Assembly: GCA_000165345.1 (NCBI GenBank)
Contig: CM000434.1
Span: 960,001-1,024,000, forward strand
Reading direction: 5' to 3'
DNA: 64,000 nt
Of this stretch, positions 3,861 through 35,255 are shown one piece after another. Under the pieces are notes generated by a model. The model was not told the DNA's origin, ran no database searches, and worked only from the letters and a program-made list of their open reading frames with translations. The position numbers were made by a program, and so were the translations under genes. Every line of letters begins with the position of its first letter. Position 1 is the stretch's first letter.

Positions 3861-3900
3861 ACCGGTATTGCAAGAAAAAATGTGCATGCAACACGTAATA
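3861..3900. promoter_or_regulatory. Composite upstream element 'ACCGGTATTGCAAGAAAAAATGTGCATGCAACACGTAATA', 150-190 nt upstream of the DRE2 start.
   Basis: It contains the ACCGGTATTGCAAGAAA word, which recurs at 35177, 20782 and 27811. It also contains the 18-nt TGCATGCAACACGTAATA word, which is repeated exactly at 6320..6337 upstream of NDC80. Confidence 0.5.
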
Positions 3901-3977
3901 GATGAAAAATATGATAAAACTTCTTTTTTAATAATAAATGTGGGGCAGGGTAAAGGAAGTATGTTTTGAATGAAAAT

Positions 3978-6068
3978 TTACTTTTTCCATTTTTCAACTT
4001 CAATTAACTTAGAATTATTCCTCAGTTTTACTTGATTTTTCAAATTAGAAATCGAATTAAGTGAATTTGAAAGATTTTGGATAATATACTCTTTAAGTTT
4101 AAAAATTGCCTCAGCATCTGACTGAATAACTTGTTTGCATTGAATAATTTCATTTCTAGAATGGCTTTCTTGAAGATTGCTTTGTTGTTCAAGTTGAATA
4201 ATACGACTCTTTGCCTTCTCCAACCTTTTTAGAGCTTCATCTTTGTTACGTTCAAACTCTGCCTTATAACTCTTTACTTTTTCTTGAATTTGTTCTAATT
4301 GCCTCATCTCCCTTTTGTCACAGACTGATAAATCTCCATCCAAATTTTTGATCTTTTTCTCCAAAGCATCACATGCCTGTTTCTTTTGAATTATAGTATC
4401 TTTTGTACTCTTCATTATTTCACTGAATTGTACTTCTTGAGTTTTCAGTTTTCTCTTCCACATTTCAACTTCAACAATACATCTTTTGCAACTATGTTTC
4501 ATGTTACTCCAATTCTGTCCAATGATTCCATCGACTCCTTGAGATTTATCATTGCTTCCAGAATATGAAATATTTAAAGATAAAGGTTGAAGCAAATTGA
4601 ATGAACAAACTTCATTAGTTCTTATATCATTTGAGGTAATATTTGTAATTTCTTGATATATACTATTCCAAGCTCGACTTAAATTATATAAATTAGTTGA
4701 ATGTTCCTCAATAGATAATTCAATCTCCCAGTTTTCCTTTTCAGTATTTTCTCTTTCTGTCCTTAAATTACGTATTGTTTGTCTTTTGACTTTCATATCC
4801 TGATAAACTCTTGAAACATCATCCCTTTGTATTCCTTGATTGGCAATTCTCTTTTGAAGCTTTTCAATTTCATCCTCGATATCTCTCAACTCCTTCTTTT
4901 TTATGTTCAAAATATTTTCAGTATCATTACAAGAATTTTCCATTTGTCGAATAGAATTTTGACATTGACCAACAGCATGTTCCATTTTTAACAAATCCTG
5001 AGAAAGCGTGTGATTTCTTTGGAGCAATAACTCTCCTTCCTGTAATTCGTGATTGATTTTTTGGATTTCCATATTCATCTGTTCAAGTTCATGCTTTTTC
5101 TTCTCTAAAGCCTGTTGAGCCTGGTTCTTCCTTTCTCTGCAATAAGCTTCCAAAGTCTCATTTAGTAATCCTCCATCATTCTGACCATTCAGAAATAACT
5201 TATAACTCTCACTTAACCTTCTATTCAATGTTTGAGATAACAATTTTGACGAATCTAAATTATTGTTATTTCCTTCAAAATTTGGAAAACCATTCGCAAC
5301 ATTTGAATTTGCATGCTGAAAAATATTAGACAAAGTACTTGTTAGAGATGTATCTGCCATATAACCACCAAATTCTCCATCTTTGCTATAATTCAAATGT
5401 GGGAAGACAGCTTGTTCATAATCTAATAACTCGCAGAGCCATGTCATTGCTGCAATGTGTTGTGGCCAAGTATTTGGAGCTCCAGGTGCAATAATAGTTG
5501 TTTTATTAATAGTAATAGGATATCCTATATCTTTAAAGAACCTTGGAATCTCATCATCTGGCTTAGATATTTTTATTCTTGGATCATACTGGCTTATAAT
5601 AAATTGTAAAACTTCTAAATATAATGCTCTAGTTGGACTATTTAAAGTTTTTGGATTAATCTGATTTGGATATCCTCTCTTACTCAAAAATGTTAATATT
5701 GTCTTCAATCCTTCTCTTCTGCTATCTGAAATACTTCTCCCTTTTGATGATGACGCTGCTGCTGAGCTCATATTTCCAGTCATTGAAGATGTTCCTACTG
5801 CATTTGCTCCCCTTTGAGAATTTCCACCTCTAGATGATGAATATGCCCAAGCATTACTTGTATTATTTATATTATTACTATTGCCACCTTTCATTAATAA
5901 TGATGACGTGGCAAAATGTGTAGGTGATTGAGTCTTATTTTGCCCTATAGAAAACGATGTCATTACAACATCTTGGCTATTAAGATCTCCATTCTCTGAA
6001 TTATCTCTAAACCCTGTTGTTCTTCTCATTGAATTTTGGCCAAAAGGACGAAAAGCATTACTCGACAT
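3978..6068 (-). CDS. NDC80: Kinetochore protein Ndc80/HEC1-like: basic N-terminal tail, a calponin-homology-like region and a long C-terminal coiled coil.
   Basis: Calponin-homology-like region 'PTRALYLEVLQFIISQYDP...FFKDIGYP...WPQHIAAMTWLCELL' resembles the Ndc80 CH domain. About 450 aa of heptad-rich E/K/Q/L sequence follow. The N-terminus is S/T/R-rich. Confidence 0.6.
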   Translation of the reverse strand: MSSNAFRPFGQNSMRRTTGFRDNSENGDLNSQDVVMTSFSIGQNKTQSPTHFATSSLLMKGGNSNNINNTSNAWAYSSSRGGNSQRGANAVGTSSMTGNMSSAAASSSKGRSISDSRREGLKTILTFLSKRGYPNQINPKTLNSPTRALYLEVLQFIISQYDPRIKISKPDDEIPRFFKDIGYPITINKTTIIAPGAPNTWPQHIAAMTWLCELLDYEQAVFPHLNYSKDGEFGGYMADTSLTSTLSNIFQHANSNVANGFPNFEGNNNNLDSSKLLSQTLNRRLSESYKLFLNGQNDGGLLNETLEAYCRERKNQAQQALEKKKHELEQMNMEIQKINHELQEGELLLQRNHTLSQDLLKMEHAVGQCQNSIRQMENSCNDTENILNIKKKELRDIEDEIEKLQKRIANQGIQRDDVSRVYQDMKVKRQTIRNLRTERENTEKENWEIELSIEEHSTNLYNLSRAWNSIYQEITNITSNDIRTNEVCSFNLLQPLSLNISYSGSNDKSQGVDGIIGQNWSNMKHSCKRCIVEVEMWKRKLKTQEVQFSEIMKSTKDTIIQKKQACDALEKKIKNLDGDLSVCDKREMRQLEQIQEKVKSYKAEFERNKDEALKRLEKAKSRIIQLEQQSNLQESHSRNEIIQCKQVIQSDAEAIFKLKEYIIQNLSNSLNSISNLKNQVKLRNNSKLIEVEKWKK

Positions 6069-6692: not shown

Positions 6693-9600
6693 TTACCACA
6701 AGTCTACATCAATATCCAGATCAGTAAGTGCCACATTTGTATCATCAGCTTGGTTGGAAACCTCTTGTAAGAATGCTGGAGTTTGTACTTCTCCTTCATT
6801 CGCAAACCAGCTTGCCATTTCATCAAGTTTACTGGTTTTGACAGCATTCGCCTTTGGCGCCATATTTACTGTCAATTTTTGCTTTTGTAATGTAGGTCTG
6901 GATTCTGTTGTTCCTCGTTTAGGTTGGGAAACTGATTTCTTTTCTGATAGTTTAAGCTTGACTGTGCTTGCGCTCTTTTCTCTCTTTGCGAGATTTTCTT
7001 GCTTTTGTTTTAATCTTCGTTCTTCATCCAACTTTGTTTTACGTACGAGATCTACTGATGAAATGAAATTCCATAATACACGGAAATAATCTGGCCAAAC
7101 AATTCTTTGAATCGTATTTTGCGGTTCTCCCAAGTATAGTGCCATCTTTTCTAGATTTTCTTTAACACTTTTCATAGTTGCTACTAAATCTTCAATTCTA
7201 GGCTCAGTATCGGAAACAAAGTCTGCTAGAATCTTAGCAATGGGATCCTTTTCTCCCATAGGGCCGGCTCTCTCATTACTTTTCTGAGCTGATTTCATTG
7301 TATCTGTGACCTTATTTAAAGATCCATTCAGTGATTGAATTTCACCTTCAATAGCACCTAAATCGCATTTGGCTGCTTTCTCTACTAAAGCCAATGGCTC
7401 TGCCAAAGAAAGCAATTCTGGCTTATCTCTCCAAATAATCTCTGTGATATATTGAAGCAAAGTTTTAATAGGTTTAGTACTCGAACGAACTTCACATAAC
7501 TTTGATAGTGAACTCATTCTAAAACCTTTAGCTTCTCCCTTTTCTGTATTAAGATTCAAAACATTACCAACTGAAAGAATTATAGAAAATACTTTCTTAA
7601 GCTTTGAATTTGTCTTAATTTCGTTGCAAACTGTAATAATCTCTTGTAAAGGCGTCATTAATTCATTAAAGGAATTGTCAAACGAAAGAATAAACAGCTG
7701 AGCGTTCAAACGAGCGCCAAACATTGGAATACCAATCATTGCAGCTATAAATTGTTCAGGCTTATCCAACTGAGTCAAGTCACCTCCTGCATCAATATAC
7801 TCTTTTACGATTGCAAACTCTTCTGGAGTTGGGGTCATTAAAATCAAAGCTTCTGTAGCTTCTGTATCCAAAATCTTCTTATCAAGATCCAATATAGCAT
7901 CACGCAATTGTTGGAATGTATATGCACTGAACTTTGATAATGCAATACTTATATTGTATGCTCTCTTTGAGTCTGGTAAAATTTGCATGACCTTTGGCTT
8001 CTTTGTCGCCTCTGTCGCCTTCTTTGGTTTTGCTGATTCGATACCAAATACTTCCTCCAAATTTCCGAAATCCAACTTGATTGGTTCTTTAATATCCCAA
8101 ATTGTACCTTGAATATTCTCAACCTTATCCCAATGTAACTTCTTTGTCTTCGATTCTGGACCACTTGGCTTACTTCCTGTCTTTCCTCCAAATTTCCCTG
8201 CCTTTCCTTTTGGGGGTCCTTTTCCTGTTGGGGGTCCTTTCCCACCTGGTGGTCCTTTTCCCCCTGGAGGACCCTTTCCTCCTGGAGGTCCTTTCCCTTT
8301 CCCTGGTGGGCCCTTTCCTTTTGCTGGCGGCGTGCCCTTTGCCGGTGGCGCGCCCTTTGCCGGTGGCGCGCCCTTTGCTTCTGCTGGTTCTGCCTTTGGT
8401 TCTGTAGGAGCACCTTCTTTTGCTTGCGGTGGCGGAGATTTGTTAATAATGTTGTCCATTTTCCCAATACCATCCAGCAATCCAGATAATGCCTTTCCTG
8501 ACTTTACACCTGCTCCTACAATACCTGTGTATACCCCTCCATCCGAAGGTTTGTATTGAATCATTGAGCTAATAAGGGCGCCAACTCCGCTACCTTTAAG
8601 AAGTTCTATCACACCCTGTGAATCAGGAGAAGGAAGTCCCCATTTTGCTGATGCTGTAAGAGCAATTCTAGTTGAAGCGCATACAAATGGCTCAAGATCG
8701 ATCACATAAGGCAACTTTGTTACTACGTTACCCCCATCATCTAAAAATGAAATGCATGCAAGTCTTTCATTACCAGATTCTTCTACATCAGGTTTTGCTC
8801 CTTTAATCTTTGCTAAAATATCATCTGGAGGAAGTTGTTGATCGATACCTACTATCTGAGTCTGAGTTACTTTAACTTGTTTAGCCTCCTCCTTATCTTT
8901 ATTTCTTTGTCTAACTAAAGGAATCAATGCATTTGGAATCCATATTGATTCTTTGAAATAAGCCTTCATTTCTTCCTTACCTGCATAATCTACTAATGGC
9001 AAATAAAATGGTAAACCTGTACTCTCATCTTTTTCTATTTGAGTTAACAACTTCCCTTCTGGAGTTATACAAGGTTCTGGAATCTCCCATTTCTCCAAAA
9101 CTGTCTGAGCTTCTTCATTTATCATCATTGTCACTGACTGCTCTCCCATAACTGGGAATCCTCTTGTTAACTTTGGAATGTTTATTATAGGTAACTTCTT
9201 TCTTTCTGTCTTACTAAATGGAGGAAGAGAAAGCATTGTAGAAACTCCTAGATAGTCTGGACCTGTAATTCTTACTTTCAAGTGAGGTAAAATTGCTGTT
9301 GAACTCACTGTCATACTCTGAAATGACTCTCCATGTAGTGCTCTGATTCTTGAAGTGCATAAAAGTTGTTGAGTTTGGTTATTTGAAAATGGGGTACTTC
9401 TATTTAACCCTCTCAAATTCTTTGGATCAAATAAAAAAGTCTCCAATTGTCGATACCTTAATTGATCAATACTTGGACAAATTGGACTTGCTAATAATGG
9501 TGATTCCTCATACATTATTCTTGTTAATTTACTTGATTTTCCTAAGGTATCGGTAATTATTTCTTTTAAAGATCTCTCTGCTCTTGATTCTAGTGATTCT

Positions 9601-11609
9601 CTTGCATCAATACACTTGTTCTGAAGCTCATGAGCTATATAAGAGTCTGTACAACTGCTTACATTCTCTGTTAAGTATACTTGGGTATCTGCATCTAATA
9701 AAGTTATCAATTCTAATACATATCTTGTATCAGGATGATCAAATCCTAAGTTCTCTCTTCTATATTTATAAACCTCATTATAAAGCTCTAAAGCATATCT
9801 AAAGTTTCCAGCCTGGTGAAAAATACATCCCAAAGCTAGTATATTGTCTTGTACTAATGGAAACTCTCTGTTATTGTAGATCCTCATTAACATATCTAAA
9901 GCTACCATTATATGTTGTACTCCTTGTCTACAATCTCCAAGTAATCGATAAACTAATCCCAAATTTGAATAGCAATCAGCTACACGAGGATGAGGTGGAT
10001 TCTTATTATGATCTCCCAGAACCTGTTTTCTGATTTCCAGACAATTATGTAACATTTCCTTACATTTTTCAAAATTCTTTATTCTGAAATAGTAACTTGC
10101 TGCTGTAGAGTATGCATCACTCATAACTAAGTCTCCTGAACCATAAACTTCATTTACTAATGAAAGATATTTTTCAAGGTAAAATGCTGATGATGTATGA
10201 TCTCTATACATACTACATAGATCAGAGACTGTTAGTACCAGACTACATAATACTGAAGAATCACATGAAACTGATGGTCCTACAGCTGTAACATTTTGAG
10301 TTGAACCTCCAGATCCTGATAAATTTGAGATATTGCTAATATGAGAAGAATCATTTTTTGCATTTTTATTCTCAGAATTGCGATCTGCAACAGCTAAGAT
10401 GGTATTTTCCACAAGAAATCGAAGCTCTTTAAGATATTGTTCTCCTTTACGTAATTCTCCTGTTAAACCACAACATTTAGCAATAATGATTAATTCTACA
10501 ACCATTATACCTTCTAATGGGTGTCCAAGGTACTTGGATAGAAAAGCTCGAGATATTTCATAACAATGTAAAGCATTCAGCATGGCATCTGAGTATTGAG
10601 CTTTCAAAAACTTCTCTAAAGCTGAGCTTCTTAGTCTTTGAATGATTCTTTGAATTTCATGTATTTCTCCATCTCCACGTGATTCTTCAAGACGTTGTAA
10701 AAGAAGAAGGGAATCTGTCATAATTTCAAACTTCTCATTAACAATTTGAGGTCTGGCTTTTGTTGTTTGTCCAAATAAGAGATTATTCTTTTCAGAAGTT
10801 GTTAGTGTAAAGTGTCTACTTGCAAACTCTTCTTTAAATGTTTGACTTAAAGCTGCTAGTGAGTGTTCAGCAGCTTCTGTTAATGCTGGATCCAATACAC
10901 TTACGTGTAGATTAAACATATCATCTTCTCTTTGAGAAATTCGAGCATTTCTTCCTTCTTTTTTTTTCAAGTTACTTTTTCCAGGAGCTTTATCTTGGAA
11001 AAGTAGACGTTTAATAGGGCCAACATCAAAAGGAAGAGTTGATTCAACAAAGGTACTTCTATTACTTAATTCTGAGTAACGTCCATCTTTAGAGAGATTG
11101 TTCTTCAATAGTTTAGATTCACCATTAATAGTGGTTGCAGTAGAAGATGCTCCTGTTGAGCTGGAAGGTAGACTACTAGCTTTGGAATCTTTACTTATAC
11201 TTTTCAGAACAGTTTTTGCTGAGGCTGGCTTTGATGGTACGCTTACTGGAGGAGCGTGACCATTGGATACTGGTGTATCATTTAAAGGTTCTGATGAATT
11301 TTTAGGTATTGGGGCCTTTGGGGCTGGTTTTAATGCAGTAGGAGGTCCTTTTGAGACCTTTGGACCAGGAGGAGAGGGTGATGGAGAAGCTGACTTTGGT
11401 GGAGGTGGTGTTGATGGTTTTGGTGGAGGTGGGGATGATGGTTTTGGTGGAGGAGATTCTGAAAGGTTTGGAGAAGGAGTTGAAGATAATTTTGAAGGTG
11501 GTGGAATTTTCGTTGCTGGTTTCCCTCCAAGTGGTTTAGCAGGGGGAGGCGGTTTTTTTCCACCAGGAGGAGAAAGAGGAGCCTTGCCTGGCACACCCAA
11601 TTTTTTCAT
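6693..11609 (-). CDS. Formin (FH1-FH2) with a proline-rich N-terminus and TPR-like repeats before the FH1 region.
   Basis: FH1 region of (GKGPPGG)n and (AKGAPP)n repeats, followed by an FH2 signature ('KKLHWDKV...IWD', 'GIPMFGARLNAQLF', 'LNLNTEKGEAKGFRMSSL'). N-terminal TPR-like units include 'YSNLGLVYRLLGD'. The N-terminus has a 'PPPPKPSTPPPPK' stretch. Starts at a true ATG at 11607-11609. Confidence 0.8.
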   Translation of the reverse strand: MKKLGVPGKAPLSPPGGKKPPPPAKPLGGKPATKIPPPSKLSSTPSPNLSESPPPKPSSPPPPKPSTPPPPKSASPSPSPPGPKVSKGPPTALKPAPKAPIPKNSSEPLNDTPVSNGHAPPVSVPSKPASAKTVLKSISKDSKASSLPSSSTGASSTATTINGESKLLKNNLSKDGRYSELSNRSTFVESTLPFDVGPIKRLLFQDKAPGKSNLKKKEGRNARISQREDDMFNLHVSVLDPALTEAAEHSLAALSQTFKEEFASRHFTLTTSEKNNLLFGQTTKARPQIVNEKFEIMTDSLLLLQRLEESRGDGEIHEIQRIIQRLRSSALEKFLKAQYSDAMLNALHCYEISRAFLSKYLGHPLEGIMVVELIIIAKCCGLTGELRKGEQYLKELRFLVENTILAVADRNSENKNAKNDSSHISNISNLSGSGGSTQNVTAVGPSVSCDSSVLCSLVLTVSDLCSMYRDHTSSAFYLEKYLSLVNEVYGSGDLVMSDAYSTAASYYFRIKNFEKCKEMLHNCLEIRKQVLGDHNKNPPHPRVADCYSNLGLVYRLLGDCRQGVQHIMVALDMLMRIYNNREFPLVQDNILALGCIFHQAGNFRYALELYNEVYKYRRENLGFDHPDTRYVLELITLLDADTQVYLTENVSSCTDSYIAHELQNKCIDARESLESRAERSLKEIITDTLGKSSKLTRIMYEESPLLASPICPSIDQLRYRQLETFLFDPKNLRGLNRSTPFSNNQTQQLLCTSRIRALHGESFQSMTVSSTAILPHLKVRITGPDYLGVSTMLSLPPFSKTERKKLPIINIPKLTRGFPVMGEQSVTMMINEEAQTVLEKWEIPEPCITPEGKLLTQIEKDESTGLPFYLPLVDYAGKEEMKAYFKESIWIPNALIPLVRQRNKDKEEAKQVKVTQTQIVGIDQQLPPDDILAKIKGAKPDVEESGNERLACISFLDDGGNVVTKLPYVIDLEPFVCASTRIALTASAKWGLPSPDSQGVIELLKGSGVGALISSMIQYKPSDGGVYTGIVGAGVKSGKALSGLLDGIGKMDNIINKSPPPQAKEGAPTEPKAEPAEAKGAPPAKGAPPAKGTPPAKGKGPPGKGKGPPGGKGPPGGKGPPGGKGPPTGKGPPKGKAGKFGGKTGSKPSGPESKTKKLHWDKVENIQGTIWDIKEPIKLDFGNLEEVFGIESAKPKKATEATKKPKVMQILPDSKRAYNISIALSKFSAYTFQQLRDAILDLDKKILDTEATEALILMTPTPEEFAIVKEYIDAGGDLTQLDKPEQFIAAMIGIPMFGARLNAQLFILSFDNSFNELMTPLQEIITVCNEIKTNSKLKKVFSIILSVGNVLNLNTEKGEAKGFRMSSLSKLCEVRSSTKPIKTLLQYITEIIWRDKPELLSLAEPLALVEKAAKCDLGAIEGEIQSLNGSLNKVTDTMKSAQKSNERAGPMGEKDPIAKILADFVSDTEPRIEDLVATMKSVKENLEKMALYLGEPQNTIQRIVWPDYFRVLWNFISSVDLVRKTKLDEERRLKQKQENLAKREKSASTVKLKLSEKKSVSQPKRGTTESRPTLQKQKLTVNMAPKANAVKTSKLDEMASWFANEGEVQTPAFLQEVSNQADDTNVALTDLDIDVDLW
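8190..8400 (-). repeat. Coding tandem repeats (15-21 nt units, GGCGCGCCCTTTGCC-like) that encode the formin FH1 poly-proline tract.
   Basis: Several direct repeats of 'ggtggcgcgccctttgcc' and 'ggtcctttcc' units are visible in the sequence. On the minus strand they translate to GKGPPGG/AKGAPP. Confidence 0.7.
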
Positions 11610-12286: not shown

Positions 12287-13312
12287 TTATCTAACAAGTT
12301 CCTTTAAAAAATGTTCGTAGTTAAATCCTCCATCATTAGATGGGAAATCCCTAATTAAAAAAAATAGTAAAAATGTTAAAAGCAGGTTGGGGGAGGCTGT
12401 TTGCATGCATTTACTTGCATGGCAAATTATCACTATACCGGCGTACATGCAAGATGTACAAATAGGCGGCATATGGCACGTATTGAAATATATGAACTTA
12501 CTTTAAAAGTATTTCAATTTCTTTATTGGTTAAAACTTCTCCTGTATTAGTTAATAGAGAAGTCAGCTGCTGGCTAGTGATTGATCCAGAGTTCTGTAAT
12601 ATTGGAAGAAATTGATGAATTAGAAATAATATTATAAATAGAAAATGGAGAAGTGGCACAAAGTATATTGAACTTACATTTGAGTCATACGATCTGAAAA
12701 ATTGAACTAGATTTTCAAAAGTGTCTTCTGGATGTACAATAGAATCACAAAATTTTACAAAAGCTTGTAAATCACATGTTTGACCAACACTTGCGACAAA
12801 TCTCTGGACTTCGCTTTCAGATGGCGCTAATCCCTAAAATTAGGAATAAAAGTGATGTTTAATTAATAATAAAAATGGAGTGGAAAACTGACCATTCTTC
12901 TAACAATTTCTCCAATTTTATTGGTTTGAATGGTTGGACCTCCTCCCTATAGTTTAAAAGAGAATAATGGTATTAAAAGATGATATTAAAGATTGCTTGG
13001 GATTAGGAGTTGGGGTTAATATGGCGGAGTAATGCATTTATTTCTCCATTTTACATATCCCAAGGATGACTTGGTAAAAGCTTAACTTACAGCAGCATCT
13101 CTGAATGAAAATTCAATTCTCTCTTTGGACTATAAATATGAAAAAAGAATTAATTTATTTGCAAAAAAAAAAAAAATTAAGTAATGATAATTAATAGTTA
13201 GTCATTTCTATGAGATTCAAGTTTCTTCCCTAGTTTCTCAAAATTCACTAAAGGAAGAAAAAATGGATGGAGCGTAACAATCAAAAGAACTTACAATCTT
13301 GAAAGGTGGCAT
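12287..13312 (-). CDS. Six-exon EF-hand (calmodulin / myosin-light-chain-like) gene of 140 aa. Exons in plus coordinates, 5' to 3' of the gene: 13312..13295, 13129..13091, 12946..12893, 12833..12678, 12593..12502, 12350..12287 (stop TAA at 12289..12287).
   Basis: Conceptual splicing gives 'MPPFKI|SKERIEFSFRDAA|GGGPTIQTNKIGEIVRRM|GLAPSESEVQRFVASVGQTCDLQAFVKFCDSIVHPEDTFENLVQFFRSYDSN|NSGSITSQQLTSLLTNTGEVLTNKEIEILL-K|DFPSNDGGFNYEHFLKELVR*'. This aligns along its length with calmodulin EF-hand pairs (for example FSFRD..GGGPTI..IGEIVRRMG versus [25 protein letters not shown]). Every exon is bounded by GTAAGT-type (or GTCAGT) donors and YAG acceptors, the phases are compatible, and stops flank each exon in frame. 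The track's ORF at 12287..12472 is the last exon plus readthrough of the intron. Confidence 0.7.
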
Positions 13313-13479
13313 CTAAATAACTGTATATAATTATTTTGCTTGCGATCTTCACACAAAATTGATAATCTATAAATTGTCTTTTTTTTTTAACTAAAATAAT
13401 TTGCTCTTGAATTTTTTCCCTCTTTATTTTTCATGCGCTTTTTTCTCTGTATAATAAAATCTTTATTTTATTTATTTCA

Positions 13480-14966: not shown

Positions 14967-15264
14967 CTTGGAATATTTTAGCATTTTTTTCTTCATAAAT
15001 CTAAAACCTACTTATCCCTTTTTCAAAATCAATATAATCCAATTTTCCATTTTCCCCTTTTCTTACTTATAATTAAATTCTGCATGCATGCAATTAATAT
15101 TTTTTTTTAAAATTTGTGCAAATATTAACATATACCGGAGATTAGGCGCCAACTTATTTAATTTTTCTAATTAAATTTCTTGAATATTCAAAGAATATTG
15201 GGGTTTGAAAGTAAAAAATTAAGTTATCTAAGAACAAATAGTAATTATTTGTTCTAGATATAAA

Positions 15265-18267: not shown

Positions 18268-18279
18268 GTAATTATTGTA

Positions 18280-20262: not shown

Positions 20263-22062
20263 GCAGTAGGGAGGTGATTGAATGAAGGAAATATATATTT
20301 ACTTTGTGGATTATTGGCAGCTGTTATCTTTATAACTCGCCATATGTCCCATTGTTAAGATATTTATTATTTTCAACATTTATTTCATTAATATCCAAGC
20401 ATAGAAGTAATATTAATAATTCTTATTACAATGTTTATAACAGTTTTTTGTTTTATTTCATTTCCGTGCCTTTTTTTGTTAGTTTCACAAGTGGGAGAAA
20501 ATGTATTTTAACTTAAATAATGTAATGGGTAAAAAATTTTTGGTTTTGTTATTCTATTTATCAAGAACAAACAAATCTCTTATTTTTCCCTCCATTGCTA
20601 ATAATATTTCCTTTGGGGGAAAATTCTCTAAAATTTTGATCCAAATGAATCTCCAATAGCACTGATATGACTGTCAATACTAGAAATTTGTGCAAAAATC
20701 TCATTCAAATATGCATGCTTAGATTTTTTGTTGACACGTGTGGCGGTAAAAGCATGCAAATTTGTAAATACGTGTTTTGCAGATTCGCCGTACCGGTATT
20801 GCCAGTGTGAATTTTAACCACATAAACATGAATATGTGCATGCACAATTAAATTAGTTGTGAGGAACTAATGCTAAATTTTTACAAACAATTAAAATAAT
20901 TAAAAATTTTAGAATTTGAAATTCAATAGTTTTACCTTCAATCTCAAGAAGGAATATGCAATATATATATATGCATGTAAATATATATTAAAATAAACAA
21001 GAATCAATGAAATGACAAACTTAATTCAAATTTTCATTTATTCAATAAGCTATTATTTAATGAAAAATTGCAATTTTTAAGTCATTTATGTTCAGAAAAA
21101 TTAGGCGCCAATGCATTCCTTCATAATATTTCCTATTCCACCCCCCACATTACATTTGTTTTACTTGTAATGCTATTTGTGCAAGAAGTATAAAGCATAT
21201 ACAATTTTTGGAAATAAGTCAAAATTAAGAAAGGAATAAAATTTGGGATTTGAATTATTCAAAACTTTAAGAGCACGATTTGTGAACAATTTGGTATTCA
21301 AAAAGAAAAAAAAACAAGTAAACTTCAGAATATAGGTCACCCAGAGACAAAAAATATAGTTCTATTATTTTCATTAATATAAAAAAGCGACATACCAAAA
21401 TATAAATGGAGTTTATATTATTATTATTATTGTTATCGGGTCTCAAATAAAAAAATAAACTTTACTTCAAAATCTAATTTTGTATTAATATTTAATTTAT
21501 TTGTATTGGCTATAAACTGATCCAAGCAATAATCTCAGGAAGATATAAATAAATACCAATTAATACAGAAGGCAATAATAATAATAATAATTTTTAACTT
21601 TCTAATAGTTTATTCATACTTTTACACGCAAATTTATATTTTCAGATTCTGGAATTATTGCAAGTTTTTCTGTCGCAGAATTTGGCGGGCATAATTTCAA
21701 GATAATTCTTATGGTTGATCATAATTAAAAATATTTTTTCATTTTTGCCAACAAATTTGTTGGCTGAAGAAATAATAAAAGATAAACATTAAATTAATCT
21801 AAAGGAAAAATTGGAATTACGAAGTTTTTTTTTCTAGGGTGGAATTAAGCTATAATTATTAAGAAGATCTAAAACACACAAAACATAAGATAATTAGAGA
21901 TCTGAATGAATAAGTTCTCATTTATATTTGCTCATATATAATATATCTTAATAAAAGATTATAATATATGAACATTGTTATATTTACACACATTTATCAC
22001 ATAAATTGCAAATTTCCCAAGTATTTTAATATCTTTGGGAATTCTACTTATAACTTACTTTC

Positions 22063-26900: not shown

Positions 26901-27541
26901 ATATTAAGTATGTCTTGTGCTTTATTTACAGGAATCTCCTCAAGTCGATCCACATTTAGACCTCTCTTACCAGCAATATCATCATAGATTCTTAAATTAA
27001 GCTTTTCATCACTCAATAAATCTGATAACTCCTCATTATATATCTCCAAATACGAAACTCGAACCCCATATTCCGTGTATTGACTTTCCAACCTCTCAAA
27101 AATAAGTTGCACAGCTCTTGGAATAATTCCTGCATGCTCAGTCAGTTCCAAATTACTTGATTCCAGATACTCCTTCATATCACCCTCCATTGTATAAGTC
27201 TTCCCAGTTCCTGTCTGTCCATATGCAAAGATTGTACAATTAAAACCTAATAGTACTTCATCCACAATAGGAACCACATATTGTTTAAAAAGCTCTCTTT
27301 GTGAAGTGAATGACCCACAAACTCCATCAAAAGTAAACAGCTTGGTAGAGTATGAGTCAAATTTACGACTCAAAGATTGGTGAGAGACAACAATTTCTTT
27401 GGAATCTGGCTTAACTTGCAAAACATTACTGTTACTAGGGTCTTTCTTTTCCTGTTCTGTCAAAGGTCTGCATCGAACAATTACCTTCACATTTACTCCG
27501 TTCTCCTCAATAGTATTCTGACGGGGTTTTGAATTCTTCAT
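23987..27541 (-). CDS. Kinesin motor protein, kinesin-5/BimC-like: N-terminal motor, long coiled-coil stalk and an S/T-rich basic tail.
   Basis: Motor motifs are P-loop 'IFAYGQTGTGKTYTM', switch I 'SSRSH', switch II 'LNLVDLAGSENIQRSGA' and 'KLTRLLQDSLGGRTKTCIIATI'. The stalk is about 700 aa of heptad-rich sequence. Confidence 0.8.
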   Translation of the reverse strand: MKNSKPRQNTIEENGVNVKVIVRCRPLTEQEKKDPSNSNVLQVKPDSKEIVVSHQSLSRKFDSYSTKLFTFDGVCGSFTSQRELFKQYVVPIVDEVLLGFNCTIFAYGQTGTGKTYTMEGDMKEYLESSNLELTEHAGIIPRAVQLIFERLESQYTEYGVRVSYLEIYNEELSDLLSDEKLNLRIYDDIAGKRGLNVDRLEEIPVNKAQDILNILSTAVRKRRTAETLLNKSSSRSHCIFTITIHTKETNIDGEDVLKVGKLNLVDLAGSENIQRSGANAVKDRAKEAGMINQSLLTLGRVINALVEHSSYVPYRDSKLTRLLQDSLGGRTKTCIIATITASSIYLEETLNTLDYAHRAKNIKNMPVVNQKMTKKVMIREMNCEIEKLKQELQCNREKNGVYLPLSQFNEMESKLQSQANEIVEMESELQNQHALYKEMESTVNSLTDQLNEKSLRVRAGDFANIHVSKHAKLYHEKYKDLFMQMNQSLENIGKLHRKIIGSELFQSSQNTQLFKLQQQLISDIQLTEKKTRECLEILYNDLNQDLLVHWKNKSQLSHVEIIGMIDTGKKLCNNVISMLSDSLEQSLTEELYAGMNNAKENLKKCLKTQDEITTRIKDEIRKGLVDCSTDTEKISMDITNQLERLKLSNERCQSLVQDYKDHSKGCETQLDTVFSQQLVGSVEHLAKSHQIEIDQRLSEQLSSLDEKSKGMKNQFCKLVDNFVEETSKALIDEKERLFKQVDDLREKIINELENGYLANKNLLRETNGRIEQLELAQLELVKDQTDCLEKRKNELGELVHSISHLGEKKLIEGFSDFSKIRNEQFDQINSKFTEISELSASSIQSCVNNVSSVVNLQNSSYSELSSCIDDYFGYNLTSFQSNIQVKINDMIQLLGEVTAFSNFSHEKSGNNEKKDSSSPVKDLPKILDKVLQGLIEIENVVAKTSPASGQTPSRRQSYSIPILRERCLSPMKYVDYYIETLPRPNIDFNQTHKMLDPFNDENKKGDEMLNSQLNLRGEELPNLSCFNWGNVKCDEMRSLNISQFIQETTVGSSDLFLREEVQQPNGIDRSEKRKERENIINDENLNIYSENTLNLSKNPSIISSKSEQKQGSLDSLKSSNFYQSSPIDENHISSNENTAAQENFLEAISSPIGSSNQIGVTISSSSTGIPRPGRPKRTVTAKKR

Positions 27542-28137
27542 ATAATTTTAACTTCAATTTATCTTCTCAAGTGGGTTTTTTTCTTTCTCTAAAGAGAGAA
27601 AACCAACTCTCCAATTTTCTTCCCTCTAGAATGTTAGTTTTCCAATTGGATTCGTAAAAATTTCTAAAATTTCTACAATTTATCAAAGTTATTCTTTTTC
27701 AGACAAAAATTGTAATTATTTGTCTTTCGTTATATTATTAATTAATTCTGCTAATTTTTGCTTACCCACATGTGCATGTGTTCATTTGGGCGCCAACGAC
27801 ATTTTGTTAATACCGGTATTGAAATTTGTAATAATACTGCTTCTTTTTGCCCCCCATTTCCTAGAAGCTTTCAAATGAGGGGCGCACACGCAATAAAAAT
27901 GGTTGGTTGGTTGTTGGGGGGCAGACTGACAATTTAGCAAGGCATCATCTAATAAGGCAAATTACACGTTGGAAGTGAATTTTGTGATTTGTAATTAATA
28001 ATAAATTTTTTCAAAAATAAGAAAAAACAAGGGAGATGCTGTTTTAATTGCAAAGAAAAGGTCAATTTATGCTAGATTAAAATAATTGAGTGTGTGCATG
28101 TTGGAAGAGAAGTTAATTAGGATTGTTACACCTACAT

Positions 28138-29235
28138 ATGAGTTCTTTTGTATCCACAAGCAGTAGTAGGTGCCAAACAGAAGAAAATGAGCTCGAACAA
28201 GCTATTAGAGAATGCAAGGAGCTGCTCCAGGATTCACCTCAGTTATTGTATGAGCATTCATATAAGAAATGGAATCGCATGATTAATAAGGGATTGGATT
28301 ACTTTGTCAAAGAACACCCAAAGACTCTAAGAAGAAGGTTAGCTAGAGGAGTACCACAAGACTTTAGATGGAAAATTTGGAACTCTTTATTACAGATTTC
28401 TTCTCTAGATGATGAGGATAAAATTAATGAAAAGGTTTCTCAAAGCTTAAGAAACTCGAATTTTTTTTTGGAAATATTTAATATCAATGACCAGAATTCT
28501 CCGAATTTTCAGTCTCCAACCATTAATTTTATATATTGTAATTATTACGATTATGCTGCCAAATTTCTAAACAAATATTCCCCTCTGATAAGTATTGATG
28601 TTCCACGAACTTTTCCAGAACTCAATATTTTTAGAGACCAAGCATCTCAGGAATGCCTTTTTAGAGTATTAAATGCTACTGCAAACCATATTCCTGATGT
28701 TGGGTATTGCCAGGGAATGAATTTTATTGCAGCTTTATTATTAATAACCAGTAACTTTGATCAAGAAAGAAGTTTCTATTCATTAATACTAATACTAGAA
28801 ACATATGGACTTTCTGGATTTTATAAAGATCAATTCCCACTATTAACCAAGTATATTCAAGCATTTGACACAATGTTTCAGACAAATATTCCCAAGCTTT
28901 GGAAACATTTTCAAGATGAAGGAATCTTTGATCCTGTTTATCTTCATCCTTGGTTCCTTACTCTATTTGTTTCAACTCTTCCGCTCAAAACTGTTGTCAT
29001 TATATGGGATTACTTGCTAGCAAATGGCCTTCAATCATTAATTTCCATAGCTATAGCGCTTCTTAAGACCCTTGAGTCCTCTTTGATTGGACAATCAATG
29101 GAAAATATTATCCAATTCTTTAAATCCCTTCGTATTTCAGTTGGGATAAATGACGTCACATGTGCTAGAATGTTGCTTTCAAAGGCAAAGAACATCCATA
29201 TTTCCGAAGAAATACTTGCTACTTTTAAGGTTTAG
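28138..29235 (+). CDS. TBC-domain Rab GTPase-activating protein.
   Basis: Arginine-finger region 'RRRLARGVPQDFRWKIW' and glutamine-finger 'YCQGMNFIAALLL' (the IxxDxxR / YxQ dual-finger TBC signature). The track's start at 28123 is a TTG; the first ATG is at 28138. Confidence 0.7.
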   Translation: MSSFVSTSSSRCQTEENELEQAIRECKELLQDSPQLLYEHSYKKWNRMINKGLDYFVKEHPKTLRRRLARGVPQDFRWKIWNSLLQISSLDDEDKINEKVSQSLRNSNFFLEIFNINDQNSPNFQSPTINFIYCNYYDYAAKFLNKYSPLISIDVPRTFPELNIFRDQASQECLFRVLNATANHIPDVGYCQGMNFIAALLLITSNFDQERSFYSLILILETYGLSGFYKDQFPLLTKYIQAFDTMFQTNIPKLWKHFQDEGIFDPVYLHPWFLTLFVSTLPLKTVVIIWDYLLANGLQSLISIAIALLKTLESSLIGQSMENIIQFFKSLRISVGINDVTCARMLLSKAKNIHISEEILATFKV

Positions 29236-31296: not shown

Positions 31297-33548
31297 TATA
31301 AGATCATTTGGTTTTGATTTGAAATTTTTTAATTGCTTGGAAGAAAACGCATTAATAAAGTCAGCAAAAATTTGAGACTTATACACAATTATTTCAATCA
31401 TAATCAATTGACATATCATTTATTCGGTCAATTTTATTGATTAATGCACGTTATAATCATTGTCATTACTTTGGATTTCTAGAATTGTCAGGGCCTATGC
31501 CGAAAAAACCACTATTATGGCGGGTAGTTAATAATTGGTGAATTATTTCCCTTTGTGCCACATTGATATTTAGGCGGTAAAGTGACAATTTATATTTTAA
31601 ATCTCGTTTTTATTGTAATTAATCGAGGGATTTTAAATGACAGATTTTCTATTACTATTGTAATTGATTATATTAACTACCTTATAATTTAGGTATTTAG
31701 TTTAGGCATTCGGATTTGAATGCTTTTTTTATGCTATATTCGCCGTTAAAGTGTGGCTGTGCAAGTATTTTCTGAGTATTGTTTAGAACTTAGACTTAGG
31801 TTGCGTGTTTAGTGTAGATTATTATCATTCTTAATGGGGGGTAATTTTAATTTACAGTCTAGTAAAAGCTTCGTTTTAGAGTCAAATTCAATATTATTGA
31901 AATTGTACATTATACTTGAAACCAAGATAGTTGATTTGCAAATTTATTCTCTACTACCGAATATTCCACTATTAGTTTTAGACCCACTAATATAGACGTT
32001 GGTTTTGAATTAAATAACTTAGATTTATTGAAATTGAGGAGAATATTTCCGATTAAGCATTATATTATTTTTATGATAAATTTGTTTCTAAGAGTGAAAA
32101 GATATGTATGTTATTAAATAATAATAAACCCTTAAAATAAGAATTATAATCGTAATTGCATCAATATATATTGCAATAATAAAAGTGTAAGACTAATTTT
32201 TAATTATTAGCTTACCAGTACTTTTTAATCAAGGCTGTTTATTTTATTTGATTTTTTTTTTTTTTTTTTTTAAGTTTAAATCACTCATTGCATTCCACCA
32301 GACTTAGATGAAGGTAGAATAGGAGACAATTTGTAATAAAGAAAATATTAATGTATTTATTTTTATATGTTCAAGAAACCTTTATTAGTTTGGTTTTAGT
32401 TAATGTTTAAGCCATTGAGATTTTGCTAATTGTGTAATTACTTTTTCAAAAAAAAAGTGAAATAGTATAAAAGCATATGAATGGGAGAATGAATAAAAAG
32501 TTTCTTGATATAACTTTTAAAGTAAAACTTCATTAAAATAGTTGAACAAAAGATTAACACAAGTATAAAAGATAAAATTTGGGTGAATAATTAGAAGATT
32601 TTATTTTTGCAGAAAAAAAAAGATGAATGATTTACTATTAATTTTTGCTTAAGCAATAAAATTCAATTATAAGAAGGAAGATCTACTAAAATTTTTGAAT
32701 ATATTCTTAATATTTATGCAGTCCATTATTAAGAAAATCAAATATGAAACATTAATTTTTAAATTTTGATTTAGTTTGAAATGAAACTTGATGTTAATTT
32801 CTTTCAGAAATAAAATTTAAAAGCTTCTCATAAGAGTATCTTTGAAGAAGTATTTTCATTTTTATTAAGTAGCATCTGGAAAATAAGAAATTCTCATTTT
32901 TTTTTTGTATATATCATACATTTTAAAACTTAATTTTTCTATTTTCTCATTTTACCGCCATAATCAGAAATACATGTTATTCCTTTTTTCTATTAAAAAA
33001 TTGGTTTCTTGCTAGTAATTCTTTTTTAATAGTTTTATACTCCTTTTCATTAAAGATTAAGTTTTAAATTATTTCTAAATCAGTAAATTTTTTTTTCTTT
33101 GTTCTCATTTCTTTCAGAATTATACTAATTTGTTAGTATTTGACAACTCAAACAGGCGGGCTGCCTTGCATGCATTTAATTTGTATTGAGTTTTTTTGCA
33201 TCTGATTTTTTCCCCACATTGTACACGTAAGCGATTTCAATTACGTGTTTTTGCGGTAATTAAAATAATAACTATATGCCGGCATTTACATGCCAAATAA
33301 TTTTAAAAAGAAGTGTAGGATTGCATGTGGATGCATGCGAGTAGAATTAGCTGGTGAATAACAAGGAGAGTGCATTAATTAATTTTTGATATGAAAACTT
33401 AGAAGGTGGAAGAAGAGATAAAGTTGAATATATTAATTTTTAGATAGGGTATAAATGTATATTTATATATATTTATATTTTTAATTGACAGTAATGTTTT
33501 AGAGTTGAGCAGATAAGAATCCCATATTATTGCTAAAAGGTGTAATAA

Positions 33549-35109
33549 ATGTTGAACTGGATACATCTGCAAAAGAATTCATCAACTAATCTGGGAGCAG
33601 ATTATGATGATGATGGTAATTATTGCATAAATAATGATAATAAAAGTAATAATATAAGTGATAGTAATGGAATAATAAGTAAGATAGGCAAAAGCATTAT
33701 CGGCAACAATGTTGAAAAAGAGAAAAATAACTTAGAAAATGAAGAATACGAAAAAGTGAAAAGAAAGTTCTTGCAAGTTTGCAATGAAATTAACGTAAAT
33801 ATAATTAAATTAATAAATAGTGTATTAGTTAAAGACGAAGATAATATAGAAAAGTTAGAAAAAAGAGATGAAAGAGAAAAAATTTTTGAGAAAGTTATAA
33901 GTTATAGAAAAGACTTTAATAATATCTTTAGCACTGAAAAGAAGGAATTGAGTTTGAGAGGACCATTGGACGAAATTAAATTTATATTTCTTGATTTGGT
34001 GGATAAACAAGAAAAAGAATTGAATTTGTGGTTAAATGATAGGAATCAACAAAAAATGGAATGGAATGAAAGAGTTGAACGTATTTATAAACAAATATTC
34101 ACTTTATCTGAAATTTTCTGTGATTCTTTACTTCTAAACATAACATGTGTACTAGGATATGTTTCAATGGAAGAGCACTCTTTATGGGTAAGCATAATTT
34201 CTTTGCTTATTGTATTTGAAATAAGAAGTTGTCAGCATACAGTTTTATTAAAAGAAAATGAATTAATTAATGAAATTGATCAAGAAAATTTTGTAATACT
34301 TGAATGGCTTAATAAAAATTGTGATGAATTTTTTTCATTATTACTTAAACAATACTCAATAATTCCAATCACATATAAAATTGGAGAAGTACTTAGAGAT
34401 ATATCTACTATATTAAATCTTGCACAAGGTCCAGGAATTGTTGATAAACAAAATAATAAAACTTTCCCAATCTCAGAATCATTCAAGAATAAAAGTAATG
34501 AAATTGCAGAACATTTAATATATAAACAAGAAATCTTCACCAATTTAATTAAATTATCAGGAAATCAATGTTTTGACATATCTTCTGATTCTATTTCAAC
34601 TTTAAGGTGTTATTTATTTGTTTCACCTAAAATTACGAATGAATACATATTAAAGAATCAACAAGATTTTTTTTCAAATATATTCAAAATTCTAATCCAA
34701 TCAACTGAATATGTACCACAAAGGCATGGTTTAAGATTGTTAAATCAGTTATTATCATTAAAAGAACTCTCAAAAGTAATGACAGCATTTTCAAGTAACT
34801 GTGAATATCTCAAAATTTTTATGAATTTGATCACATCTCACTTAAATACTACTTCATTCGAAGCATTTCATATTTTTAAGCTTTTTGTTGCAAATCCCAA
34901 TAAATCACCAGGAATTCAAAAGATTTTATTTAAAAATAAAGATAAAATAGTTGAATTCCTAATTCATTTCCAAACTTCCAGAACTGATCCACAATTCATT
35001 TCAGATAAACAGGTAAGTCACTTACTTCACACATCAATTATTTTGCTAATAATAACCTTCTATTATTTCAGTTTGTAATTAATAAAATTAAAGATTTAAA
35101 AGCAATCTA
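33549..35109 (+). CDS. MO25: Mo25/CAB39-family scaffold protein, two exons: 33549..35011 and 35071..35109; 59-nt intron 35012..35070.
   Basis: Mo25-family C-terminal armadillo-like region 'FEAFHIFKLFVANPNKSPGIQKILFKNKDKIVEFLIHFQTSRTDPQFISDKQ' (human CAB39: [52 protein letters not shown]). Splicing GTAAGT...TATTATTTCAG in phase 0 adds 'FVINKIKDLKAI*', matching the conserved Mo25 end 'YLVKQIRDLK'. Without splicing the ORF ends in a hydrophobic 'VSHLLHTSIILLIITFYYFSL'. Confidence 0.75.
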
Positions 35110-35255
35110 AAATAATTCCTATTTTATATAACCATTTTTGCACATTTTGGCGCCAAAATGTCACAGTGGGGAAGTCTGCGGTATTGCAAGAAATTACTAA
35201 AATAAAGAATTATACAAAAAAAGAAGTTTGTATTTGAAGTGATTATATTGACTTT

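What the first reader, a model, noticed from the sequence alone, without database searches (positions are those of the whole stretch)
3861..35192. Recurrent upstream word ACCGGTATTGCAAGAAA
Near-identical copies occur at 3861..3877 ('accggtattgcaagaaa', DRE2 promoter) and 35177..35192 ('gcggtattgcaagaaa', about 65 nt upstream of the 35256 gene). A further copy, 'accggtattgccag', lies at 20782..20795 and another, 'accggtattgaaa', at 27811..27824 in the kinesin/TBC divergent promoter. Related 'taccgg' cores occur at 12447, 15133 and 53884. This is not one of the commonly cited apicomplexan motifs and may be an undescribed promoter element.
Basis: seen in the sequence. Interest (0 to 1): 0.5.

Follow-up and report, generated by a model that had tools for sequence, protein, structure and literature searches.

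The report
Conserved CCGG(T/C)AT box beside E2F sites
The long repeated word is a chance extension of a real 7-base promoter element, CCGG(T/C)AT, which sits next to E2F sites in Cryptosporidium parvum intergenic DNA, is kept in related species, and is missing from published motif lists for this parasite.

Summary
The window is Cryptosporidium parvum chromosome 6. The two long copies are real: CGGTATTGCAAGAAA is exact at 3863-3877 and 35179-35193. A 15-nt identity of this composition is not unusual, though. It arises in 37-67% of simulated windows. The tail TTGCAAGAAA is not conserved in other Cryptosporidium species at either locus.

The core is what holds up. CCGG[T/C]AT occurs 14 times against 1.6 expected in the whole window, and 9 against 0.5 in inter-ORF DNA. 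Single-base substitution scans show sharp specificity. By k-mer ranking it is the next over-represented intergenic family after the E2F and TGCATGCA words, level with ACACGT.

At four promoters the core forms a separate conserved island in C. ubiquitum, C. canis, chipmunk genotype I, C. felis or an unnamed species. It is absent at the orthologous places in C. bovis and C. serpentis.

Seven of nine sites have an E2F-like hexamer 6-43 nt away, always on the CCGG side. Orientation relative to the genes is not fixed.

The most likely reading is a binding site for an unidentified transcription factor that works alongside E2F/DP. It is not among the published C. parvum motifs. The tail matches FIRE motifs 13 and 20. 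A similar ATACCGGTAT motif is known in oomycete promoters. The evidence comes from one 64-kb window.

The parts
3862..3868 (+). CCGGTAT core in the DRE2 (anamorsin) promoter, 151 nt from the DRE2 ATG at 3711. It points away from DRE2.
   Evidence: ATACCGG is also present at a similar distance from the E2F site in the L005 species.
3813..3818 (.). E2F-type GGCGCC, 43 nt on the CCGG side of the 3862 core.
35178..35184 (+). Variant core GCGGTAT in the 177-nt MO25-COG7 spacer, 78 nt upstream of the COG7 ATG.
   Evidence: GCGGTAT is kept in chipmunk genotype I and C. ubiquitum, GCGGTAC in C. canis, and it is lost in C. felis.
35149..35154 (.). E2F-type GGCGCC, 23 nt on the 5' side of the 35178 core, with a conserved G-box (GTGGGG) between the two.
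27813..27824 (+). CCGGTATTGAAA in the kinesin/TBC divergent promoter. In C. parvum it sits within the palindrome TACCGGTA at 27811-27818.
   Evidence: Identical in C. parvum, chipmunk genotype I, C. ubiquitum and C. canis. C. felis has CCGGTATGGAAA. The two bases 5' of CCGG vary between species.
27789..27794 (.). E2F-type GGCGCC, 18 nt on the 5' side of the 27813 core.
53885..53891 (+). CCGGCAT, 336 nt upstream of the coiled-coil gene at 54221.
   Evidence: A conserved island in C. parvum, C. ubiquitum and C. canis. The preceding TA is not conserved. Absent in C. felis.
53868..53873 (.). E2F-type GGCGCC plus a G-box (CCCCAC), 11 nt on the 5' side of the 53885 core.
33279..33285 (+). CCGGCAT, within TGCCGGCATTTACATGC, 270 nt upstream of the MO25 ATG.
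   Evidence: ACCGGCATTTACATGC in C. ubiquitum and ACCGGCGTTTGCATGC in C. canis. Chipmunk genotype I has ACCTGCAT, so the core is broken there.
20793..20799 (+). CCGGTAT, within TACCGGTATTGCC, in a 1.8-kb ORF-free stretch between RPL10 and the metallophosphatase gene.
   Evidence: No orthologous sequence was available to test conservation.
15132..15138 (-). CCGGTAT on the minus strand, 6 nt from GGCGCC (15145-15150) and 132 nt upstream of the gene at 15265.
12435..12441 (-). CCGGTAT on the minus strand, inside the last intron (12351-12501) of a small multi-exon EF-hand gene. It lies 23 nt from GCCGCC and next to TGCATG.
   Evidence: CCGGTAT is also present in the orthologous intron of L005.
1748..1755 (.). 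Palindrome TACCGGTA, 299 nt upstream of the ORF at 2049 and 35 nt from GGCGGG (1709-1714).
   Evidence: Not present in the orthologous upstream region of L005.

Best explanation
CCGG(T/C)AT is a short cis-regulatory DNA element of Cryptosporidium parvum promoters. It is most likely the binding site of a sequence-specific transcription factor that has not been identified. It lies in the same compact promoter cores as the E2F/DP site (GGCGCC or GGCGGG), TGCATGCA and the G-box. Its CCGG end always faces the nearest E2F site, at a variable distance of 6-43 nt. It probably contributes to promoter activity together with E2F/DP.

The 15-17-nt identity between the DRE2 and COG7 promoters arises because this core happens to be followed by the same AT-rich tail in both places. 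That tail is not under detectable constraint.

Shown here: enrichment, sharp sequence specificity, cross-species conservation as separate islands, and one-sided pairing with E2F-like sites.

Inferred: protein binding, cooperation with E2F/DP, and any effect on transcription.
For: Enrichment:
- CCGGYAT occurs 14 times against 1.56 in dinucleotide shuffles of the window, with 0 of 100 shuffles reaching 14.
- Outside ORFs it occurs 9 times against 0.5, p = 6e-9.
- In unbiased rankings of intergenic hexamers and heptamers, CCGGTA and ACCGGTA come just behind the E2F and TGCATGC word families, level with ACACGT.

Specificity: of all single-base variants of CCGGTAT, only CCGGTAT (6 against 0.30), CCGGCAT (3 against 0.22) and CCGGTAC (2 against 0.09) are enriched. 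CCGGTAC is seen only at two of the palindromic TACCGGTA sites, 1748 and 20791, where it is the opposite-strand reading of that palindrome.

Conservation:
- In three-species alignments of 5,860 intergenic positions, only 2.9% of hexamer windows are identical in all three species.
- Only 35 blocks of 6 nt or more are fully conserved. Three of them are CCGGTATTGAAA, GCGGTA and CCGGCAT, each separated from neighbouring conserved blocks by variable bases.
- The kinesin/TBC site is kept in five species even though C. canis has about 49% GC against 30% in C. parvum.
- The DRE2 and intron sites recur in the L005 species.

Architecture: 7 of 9 sites have an E2F-like hexamer within 45 nt on the 5' side of CCGGYAT and none on the 3' side. 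Random intergenic positions give 0.74 of 9, and none of 5,000 trials reached 7.

DNA-level rather than RNA-level: two sites point away from the adjacent gene, and for the DRE2 site that arrangement is the same in L005.

The coding-region excess is mostly explained by codon usage: 10 observed against 4.5 under codon permutation, P = 0.024. The real signal is therefore intergenic.
Against: - The sample is one 64-kb window with nine loci. No genome-wide test was possible.
- The orthologous sites in related species are not independent observations.
- Conservation is incomplete. The MO25-upstream site is mutated in chipmunk genotype I. The site at 1750 is absent in L005. Three sites are absent in C. 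felis. None is found at the orthologous places in C. bovis or C. serpentis.
- The sites lie inside blocks that are dense with other conserved motifs, so part of the conservation could be shared with neighbours.
- For the palindromic sites I chose the orientation myself, from conservation or from context.
- Variable spacing to the E2F site argues against rigid cooperative binding.
- No protein is known to bind this sequence. MEME analysis of sporozoite ATAC-seq peaks reported only E2F and poly-T motifs among its top three.
Confidence: 0.6

Rival explanations
1. The core is a core-promoter or initiator-like element. It would sit at or just upstream of the transcription start and set the start position or direction downstream of the E2F site, rather than being a site for a regulatory factor. 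The two cases that point away from the gene would then drive antisense or bidirectional transcripts.
For: - The arrangement is always E2F site, then core.
- Seven of nine cores point towards the nearest downstream gene.
- In the 177-nt MO25-COG7 spacer the core lies 78 nt before the ATG, which is about where a start site must fall.
- C. parvum has many antisense lncRNAs that start at gene 3' ends with E2F sites upstream, and bidirectional promoters have been proposed (PMC7840661).
- One published lncRNA sequence carries AACCGGTATAG about 20 nt from its 5' end.
Against: - The distance to the ATG ranges from 78 to about 1,270 nt, and the distance to the E2F site from 6 to 43 nt. An initiator would be expected to have a tighter geometry.
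- Most E2F-containing promoters in the window have no such core. There are 30 E2F-like hexamers against 9 cores.
- No start-site data were available here.
Confidence: 0.15
2. The whole 15-17-nt word is the functional unit. It would be a composite site made of CCGGTAT plus a TTGCAAGAAA or CAAT-box-like half, shared by the DRE2 and COG7 promoters for co-regulation.
For: - There are two exact 15-nt copies, both in promoters.
- TATTGCA matches FIRE motif 13 (WATTGCA) and GTATTGCA matches motif 20 (BTAKTGCD).
- COG7 (cgd6_4250) belongs to expression cluster 113, in which motif 13 was reported as over-represented.
- T-T-G follows the core at 5 of 9 sites.
Against: - The tail is replaced by unrelated bases in chipmunk genotype I, C. 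ubiquitum and C. canis at the COG7 promoter, and in L005 at the DRE2 promoter, while the core stays.
- ATTGCA is not enriched in intergenic DNA: 20 observed against 13 expected.
- Repeats of this length and composition arise by chance in 37-67% of simulations.
- The word is in opposite orientation relative to the two genes.
Confidence: 0.1
3. There is no function. The enrichment would be a compositional or mutational by-product of GC-rich islands around E2F sites, and the apparent conservation would be carried by neighbouring constrained motifs.
For: - The sample is small.
- The sites sit inside dense conserved promoter blocks.
- There is turnover in C. felis and chipmunk genotype I, and the core is absent in C. 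bovis and C. serpentis.
Against: - The single-substitution scan shows that only two closely related heptamers are enriched, not GC-rich neighbours in general.
- The conserved islands are separated from the E2F block by variable bases.
- Three of the four cores in the region covered by the three-species alignments are fully conserved, against a 2.9% background.
- The placement relative to E2F sites is one-sided.
Confidence: 0.1
4. It is a dispersed repeat, a fragment of a mobile element or a small structured RNA gene.
For: The same 15-nt word occurs at two distant places.
Against: - There is no similarity beyond the 15 nt.
- There are no Rfam matches and no tRNA genes in the window.
- The two copies have different orientation and context.
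Confidence: 0.02

Closest known systems
Oomycete promoter motif ATACCGGTAT / GTACCGGTA (Plasmopara halstedii streme-5; Phytophthora motif-9 of Seidl et al. 2012)
   Same: It has the same ACCGGT core with TA flanks, lies upstream of genes, and its binding factor is unknown. It is reported upstream of 1,284 Phytophthora genes and 206 Plasmopara genes (PMC10031896, PMC3520976). Four C. parvum sites read TACCGGTA.
   Different: The oomycete motif is described as a full inverted repeat. In Cryptosporidium, only one half plus the following AT is conserved between species. C replaces T at position 5 in a third of sites. The two bases 5' of CCGG vary. Pairing with E2F sites has not been reported for oomycetes. 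The two lineages, Stramenopila and Alveolata, are distant. Common origin was not tested.
C. parvum E2F/DP motif ([C/G]GCGC[G/C], TTTGGCGCCAAA / TTTGGCGGGAAA)
   Same: It is also a short GC-rich island in AT-rich intergenic DNA, conserved across species, in the same promoter cores, and occurring in either orientation relative to genes.
   Different: CCGGYAT lacks the GCGC/GCGG centre that defines E2F sites. It occurs as a separate island 6-43 nt away. It is about three times rarer in this window.
FIRE motifs 13 (WATTGCA) and 20 (BTAKTGCD), 'CAAT-box-like' family of Oberstaller et al. 2013
   Same: The COG7 gene is in a cluster in which motif 13 was scored as over-represented.
   Different: Those motifs do not contain CCGG. 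Only the two long copies match them. The matching tail is not conserved across species, whereas CCGG is.
CDE/CHR tandem elements of animal cell-cycle promoters (recalled from general knowledge, not tested here)
   Same: An E2F-like site is paired with a second short element on one side.
   Different: The CHR is TTYGAA at a fixed 4-nt spacing and is bound by LIN54 of the MuvB complex. Here the sequence is different and the spacing varies from 6 to 43 nt.
Plant DRE/CRT element TACCGACAT bound by DREB AP2/ERF proteins (recalled from general knowledge; a lead only)
   Same: TACCGGCAT at 53883 differs from TACCGACAT by one base. Apicomplexan ApiAP2 domains belong to the same DNA-binding superfamily.
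   Different: The core is CCGGC or CCGGT, not CCGAC. No tested C. parvum AP2 domain is reported to bind such a site (review Table 4).

Membership tests
E2F/DP binding site | A central [C/G]GCGC[G/C] or GGCGGG core flanked by T-rich and A-rich bases | tested here: not met
   CCGGTAT and CCGGCAT contain no GCGC or GCGG. The variant GCGGTAT at 35178 has only GCGG. At 33253, GCGGTAATT in C. parvum aligns with GCGGGAAAT in C. ubiquitum and C. canis, so GCGGTA words may in some cases be decayed E2F sites.
AP2_1 (TGCATGCA), AP2_2 (GCACAC), G-box (G.GGGG), GAGA | A match to the published consensus | tested here: not met
   There is no overlap with any of these strings. They occur as separate neighbouring islands.
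FIRE motifs 13 and 20 (WATTGCA / BTAKTGCD) | A match to the consensus string | tested here: inconclusive
   Met by the two long copies only (TATTGCA, GTATTGCA). Not met at 20793 (TATTGCC), 27813 (TATTGAA), 53885 (CATTGGA), 33279, 15132, 12435 or 1750.
FIRE motifs 13 and 20 (WATTGCA / BTAKTGCD) | The matching bases are the constrained ones | tested here: not met
   The TTGCAAGAAA tail is not conserved in chipmunk genotype I, C. ubiquitum, C. canis or L005.
Oomycete ACCGGT inverted-repeat motif | A full inverted repeat (G/A)TACCGGTA(T/C) | tested here: inconclusive
   Four of nine C. parvum sites read TACCGGTA or TGCCGGCA, that is, they are palindromic. At 27811 and 53883, however, the 5' TA is not conserved, whereas the 3' AT is.
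Oomycete ACCGGT inverted-repeat motif | The same binding factor or a common origin | not testable with these tools
   The factor is unknown in both lineages.
Dispersed repeat or mobile element | Similarity that extends beyond the short word; terminal repeats or coding capacity | tested here: not met
   A pairwise alignment of 135-nt segments shows identity only in the 15-nt block.
Known structured RNA or tRNA | A covariance-model or tRNA match | tested here: not met
   No Rfam match at gathering threshold and no tRNA in the window.
Functional transcription-factor binding site (generic) | Over-representation in non-coding DNA relative to composition | tested here: met
   Nine observed against 0.5 expected outside ORFs, and 14 against 1.56 in the whole window. 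Tested in this window only, not genome-wide.
Functional transcription-factor binding site (generic) | Conservation at orthologous promoters above background | tested here: met
   Three of four cores in the aligned region are identical in three species, against a 2.9% background. One site is kept in five species. Turnover is seen in more distant species.
Functional transcription-factor binding site (generic) | Bound by a protein, and mutation changes expression | not testable with these tools
   This needs EMSA, DAP-seq, PBM or pull-down, plus reporter mutagenesis.

The most novel reading that the evidence does not exclude
CCGG(T/C)AT would be the site of a previously unrecognised general promoter factor of Cryptosporidium. 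Candidates are one of the ApiAP2 or Myb-like proteins that have no assigned motif. The factor would work directionally with E2F/DP. The element would be related to the abundant ACCGGT inverted repeat of oomycete promoters, making it an old promoter element shared across the SAR supergroup.
Probability: 0.1. Interest if true: 0.7.

Novelty: new member of a known kind. Interest (0 to 1): 0.45.

Why it matters
Only about six families of promoter motifs are recognised in Cryptosporidium, and the factor is unknown for several of them. E2F sites dominate, yet they cannot by themselves explain differential expression. A further conserved element that pairs with E2F sites in a fixed relative orientation would be a concrete handle. 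It could serve as a probe to fish out a new transcription factor. It could help predict promoter direction in a genome with very short spacers and many antisense transcripts. It could also guide the design of minimal promoters for transgenesis. The resemblance to an abundant oomycete motif, if real, would point to a conserved regulator across distant parasites.

Tried and rejected
- **The 17-mer as a unit.** Rejected, because the tail is not conserved and repeats of that length are expected by chance.
- **The full palindrome TACCGGTA as the unit.** Not supported, because the 5' TA varies between species at 27811 and 53883.
- **GCGGTAT as a regular variant.** It is not enriched: 1 observed against 0.28 expected. 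It is kept as a single conserved variant site.
- **Coding-region copies as functional.** They are mostly explained by Thr-Gly and Pro-Gly codon pairs. Codon permutation gives 4.5 against 10 observed, P = 0.024.
- **Repeat element or RNA gene.** No flank similarity, no Rfam match and no tRNA.
- **Helical phasing between the E2F site and the core.** The gaps of 6, 11, 18, 23, 23, 35 and 43 nt show no periodicity by inspection.
- **Literature searches** for TACCGG, CCGGTA, CCGGYAT and TACCGGTA with Cryptosporidium or Apicomplexa returned only primers, apart from the oomycete papers.
- **Papers on C. parvum motifs, lncRNA promoters, ATAC-seq and CENH3** do not mention the word.
- **Orthologues of the formin-DRE2 region** in C. 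ubiquitum and C. canis could not be retrieved, because the protein search returned only three Cryptosporidium hits.
It was replaced by a script.


Full report
**Source and context.** Exact protein look-ups place the window on Cryptosporidium parvum chromosome 6. ORF 2815-3711 on the minus strand is the anamorsin homologue DRE2. ORF 33549-35078 is MO25, and 35256-38099 is COG7. Pfam calls on orthologous loci identify the kinesin (23987-27541, minus strand), the RabGAP-TBC gene (28123-29235), Ndc80 (3978-6068, minus) and a formin (6693-11609, minus). The window is about 30% GC. No Rfam family or tRNA is present.

**The observation.** The word accggtattgcaagaaa is at 3861-3877, and gcggtattgcaagaaa is at 35178-35193. 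The shared exact block is 15 nt, CGGTATTGCAAGAAA, and it has only these two exact copies. Aligning 135 nt around each copy shows no similarity outside the block. ACCGGTATTGCCAG is at 20792, and the TACCGG given as 12447 is at 12436.

**Is it more than chance?** The long identity is not. In simulated 64-kb sequences of the same composition, at least one recurring 15-mer with 6 or more G/C appears in 37% of order-1 runs and 67% of order-3 runs. The real window holds several other such repeats.

The core is more than chance:
- TACCGG gives 20 strand hits against 2.64 in dinucleotide shuffles.
- CCGGYAT gives 14 against 1.56.
- CCGGTATTG gives 3 against 0.08.

Splitting the window by ORFs, CCGGYAT occurs 9 times against 0.5 expected in 14.7 kb of inter-ORF DNA, p = 6e-9. 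That survives correction for all heptamers. In an unbiased ranking of intergenic hexamers and heptamers, the CCGGTA and ACCGGTA words come directly after the E2F family (GGCGCC, GGCGGG and relatives) and TGCATGC. They are level with ACACGT. Inside ORFs the excess mostly disappears under a codon-permutation null: 10 observed against 4.5, P = 0.024. The coding copies read as Thr-Gly or Pro-Gly codon pairs.

**Defining the element.** A single-substitution scan of CCGGTAT in intergenic DNA shows that only CCGGTAT (6 against 0.30), CCGGCAT (3 against 0.22) and CCGGTAC are enriched. CCGGTAC is seen only at two of the palindromic TACCGGTA sites, where it is the opposite-strand reading. Every other variant sits at background, including GCGGTAT.

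Nine intergenic loci carry the element: 1748, 3862, 12435(-), 15132(-), 20793, 27813, 33279, 35178 (the GCGGTAT variant) and 53885. After the core, T follows at 8 of 9 sites and TTG at 5 of 9.

**Cross-species evidence.** I fetched orthologous loci from C. ubiquitum, C. canis, C. felis, chipmunk genotype I, C. bovis and C. serpentis. I also fetched one from an unnamed species in a public read-set assembly, L005.

In C. parvum / C. ubiquitum / C. canis alignments of eleven intergenic regions (5,860 positions), only 2.9% of hexamer windows are identical in all three. Only 35 blocks of 6 nt or more are fully conserved. Most of these are E2F, TGCATGCA or G-box words. Three are CCGGTATTGAAA (27813), GCGGTA (35178) and CCGGCAT (53885), each set off from neighbouring blocks by variable bases.

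Site by site:
- **Kinesin/TBC site (27813).** Kept in five species, although C. canis has about 49% GC. The two bases before CCGG differ (TA, CG, GA, CG, TA), so the palindromic extension is not constrained.
- **Upstream of MO25 (33279).** C. ubiquitum and C. canis keep ACCGGC(A/G)TTT. Chipmunk genotype I has ACCTGCAT, so the core is broken there.
- **DRE2 promoter (3862).** The L005 species has ATACCGGC at a similar distance from the E2F site.
- **Intron site at 12435.** It recurs in the orthologous intron of L005.
- **Site at 1750.** It is absent in L005.

C. felis keeps only one of four sites. C. bovis and C. serpentis show no enrichment and none of the orthologous sites. The tail TTGCAAGAAA is replaced by unrelated bases at both long copies.

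**Architecture.** With each site oriented as CCGGYAT, 7 of 9 have an E2F-like hexamer 6-43 nt away on the 5' side and none on the 3' side. Random intergenic positions give 0.74 of 9, and none of 5,000 trials reached 7. For four sites the orientation is unambiguous from the C. parvum sequence (3862, 12435, 15132, 35178). For two more (27813, 53885) it is fixed by which half is conserved between species. All six follow the rule.

Orientation relative to genes is not fixed. Seven cores point to the nearest downstream gene. Two, at DRE2 and at the 15265 gene, point away from it. Distances to the ATG run from 78 to about 1,270 nt.

**Interpretation.** Four features fit a functional DNA element of promoter cores: sharp sequence specificity, intergenic enrichment, island-like conservation and one-sided pairing with E2F sites. 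The most likely reading is a binding site for a sequence-specific factor acting with E2F/DP. Protein binding and any effect on transcription are inferred, not shown. An initiator-like role is the main rival. It fits the rule that the E2F site comes first and the core second, and it fits the compact COG7 promoter. The variable geometry counts against it.

**Comparison with what is known.** The word is absent from the texts and motif tables of several sources:
- Mullapudi 2007, Cohn 2010 and Oberstaller 2013 and 2014.
- The 2025 review of Cryptosporidium gene regulation.
- The ATAC-seq study, which reported E2F and poly-T motifs only.
- The lncRNA promoter study, whose five motifs do not include it.

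Bankier et al. 2003, the original chromosome 6 study, was not held in the searchable library and could not be read.

COG7 lies in a cluster in which motif 13 was scored as over-represented. So the tail, not the core, has a published counterpart.

Outside Apicomplexa, oomycete promoter studies report ATACCGGTAT and GTACCGGTA as an abundant inverted-repeat motif with no known factor. That is the closest sequence match. Whether it is related cannot be tested here.

**Verdict.** The element is a candidate new member of the known class of short promoter motifs. Confidence that it is functional is moderate (0.6), limited by the single-window sample.

Noticed in passing
   Followed up: partly
window, inter-ORF DNA (for example 1523, 3891, 6328, 12144, 19478, 20734, 20770, 27964, 33223, 33243, 40302): ACACGT/ACGTGT is strongly over-represented outside ORFs: 12 observed against 0.92 expected. 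It is often extended to ACACGTAAT. ACACGT-N2-GGCGCCAAGC occurs twice, at 1523 and at 40302 on the minus strand. This word is not among the listed C. parvum motifs either, and it may be a second undescribed element.
   Followed up: partly
window 12351-12501 (minus strand): The last intron of a small multi-exon EF-hand gene upstream of the formin gene carries a promoter-like cluster: GCCGCC, TGCATG, CCGGTAT and TGCATGCA. The cluster is conserved in the orthologous intron of L005. It could be an intronic promoter for the downstream formin gene or for an internal transcript.
   Followed up: partly
window 20263-22062: A 1.8-kb stretch with no ORF of 150 aa or more lies between RPL10 (19570-20262) and the metallophosphatase gene. 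It contains several TGCATGCA words, ACACGTGT, GCGGTAAAAG and TACCGGTATTG. The same spacer is only about 365 nt in C. serpentis. It may hold an unannotated or non-coding transcript.
   Followed up: no
window 33253-33261; L001 and L002 upstream of MO25: GCGGTAATT in C. parvum aligns with the E2F-like GCGGGAAAT in C. ubiquitum and C. canis. Some GCGGTA words may therefore be decayed or variant E2F sites rather than variants of the CCGG core.
   Followed up: partly
window 15081-15096 and 62563-62578: AATTGCATGCATGCAATTA-type words with a doubled TGCATGCA recur in two promoters. The copy at 62563 lies within a 19-nt block conserved in three species, upstream of the ribosomal protein gene at 62744-63334.
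   Followed up: no
L002 and L007 (C. canis), L005: C. canis (49-51% GC) and the L005 species (44.5% GC) differ greatly in base composition from C. parvum (about 30%). Even so, they keep the same short promoter islands, which makes them unusually informative for phylogenetic footprinting.
   Followed up: no
window 52095-52186, 52743-52849, 53376-53464: The 3,819-aa ORF (42243-53702) ends with several in-frame tandem arrays: TCT/TCC runs, a 24- or 48-nt Gly-rich unit, and an 18-nt unit TAACAATAGGACCAGGAG. These account for several of the recurring 15-mers in the window.
   Followed up: no
L004 7451-7739 (C. serpentis kinesin/TBC spacer): In the gastric-clade species the spacer is half as long. 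GGCGC directly abuts TATTGCGA, and there is no CCGG. The TATTG part may persist there without the core.
   Followed up: no
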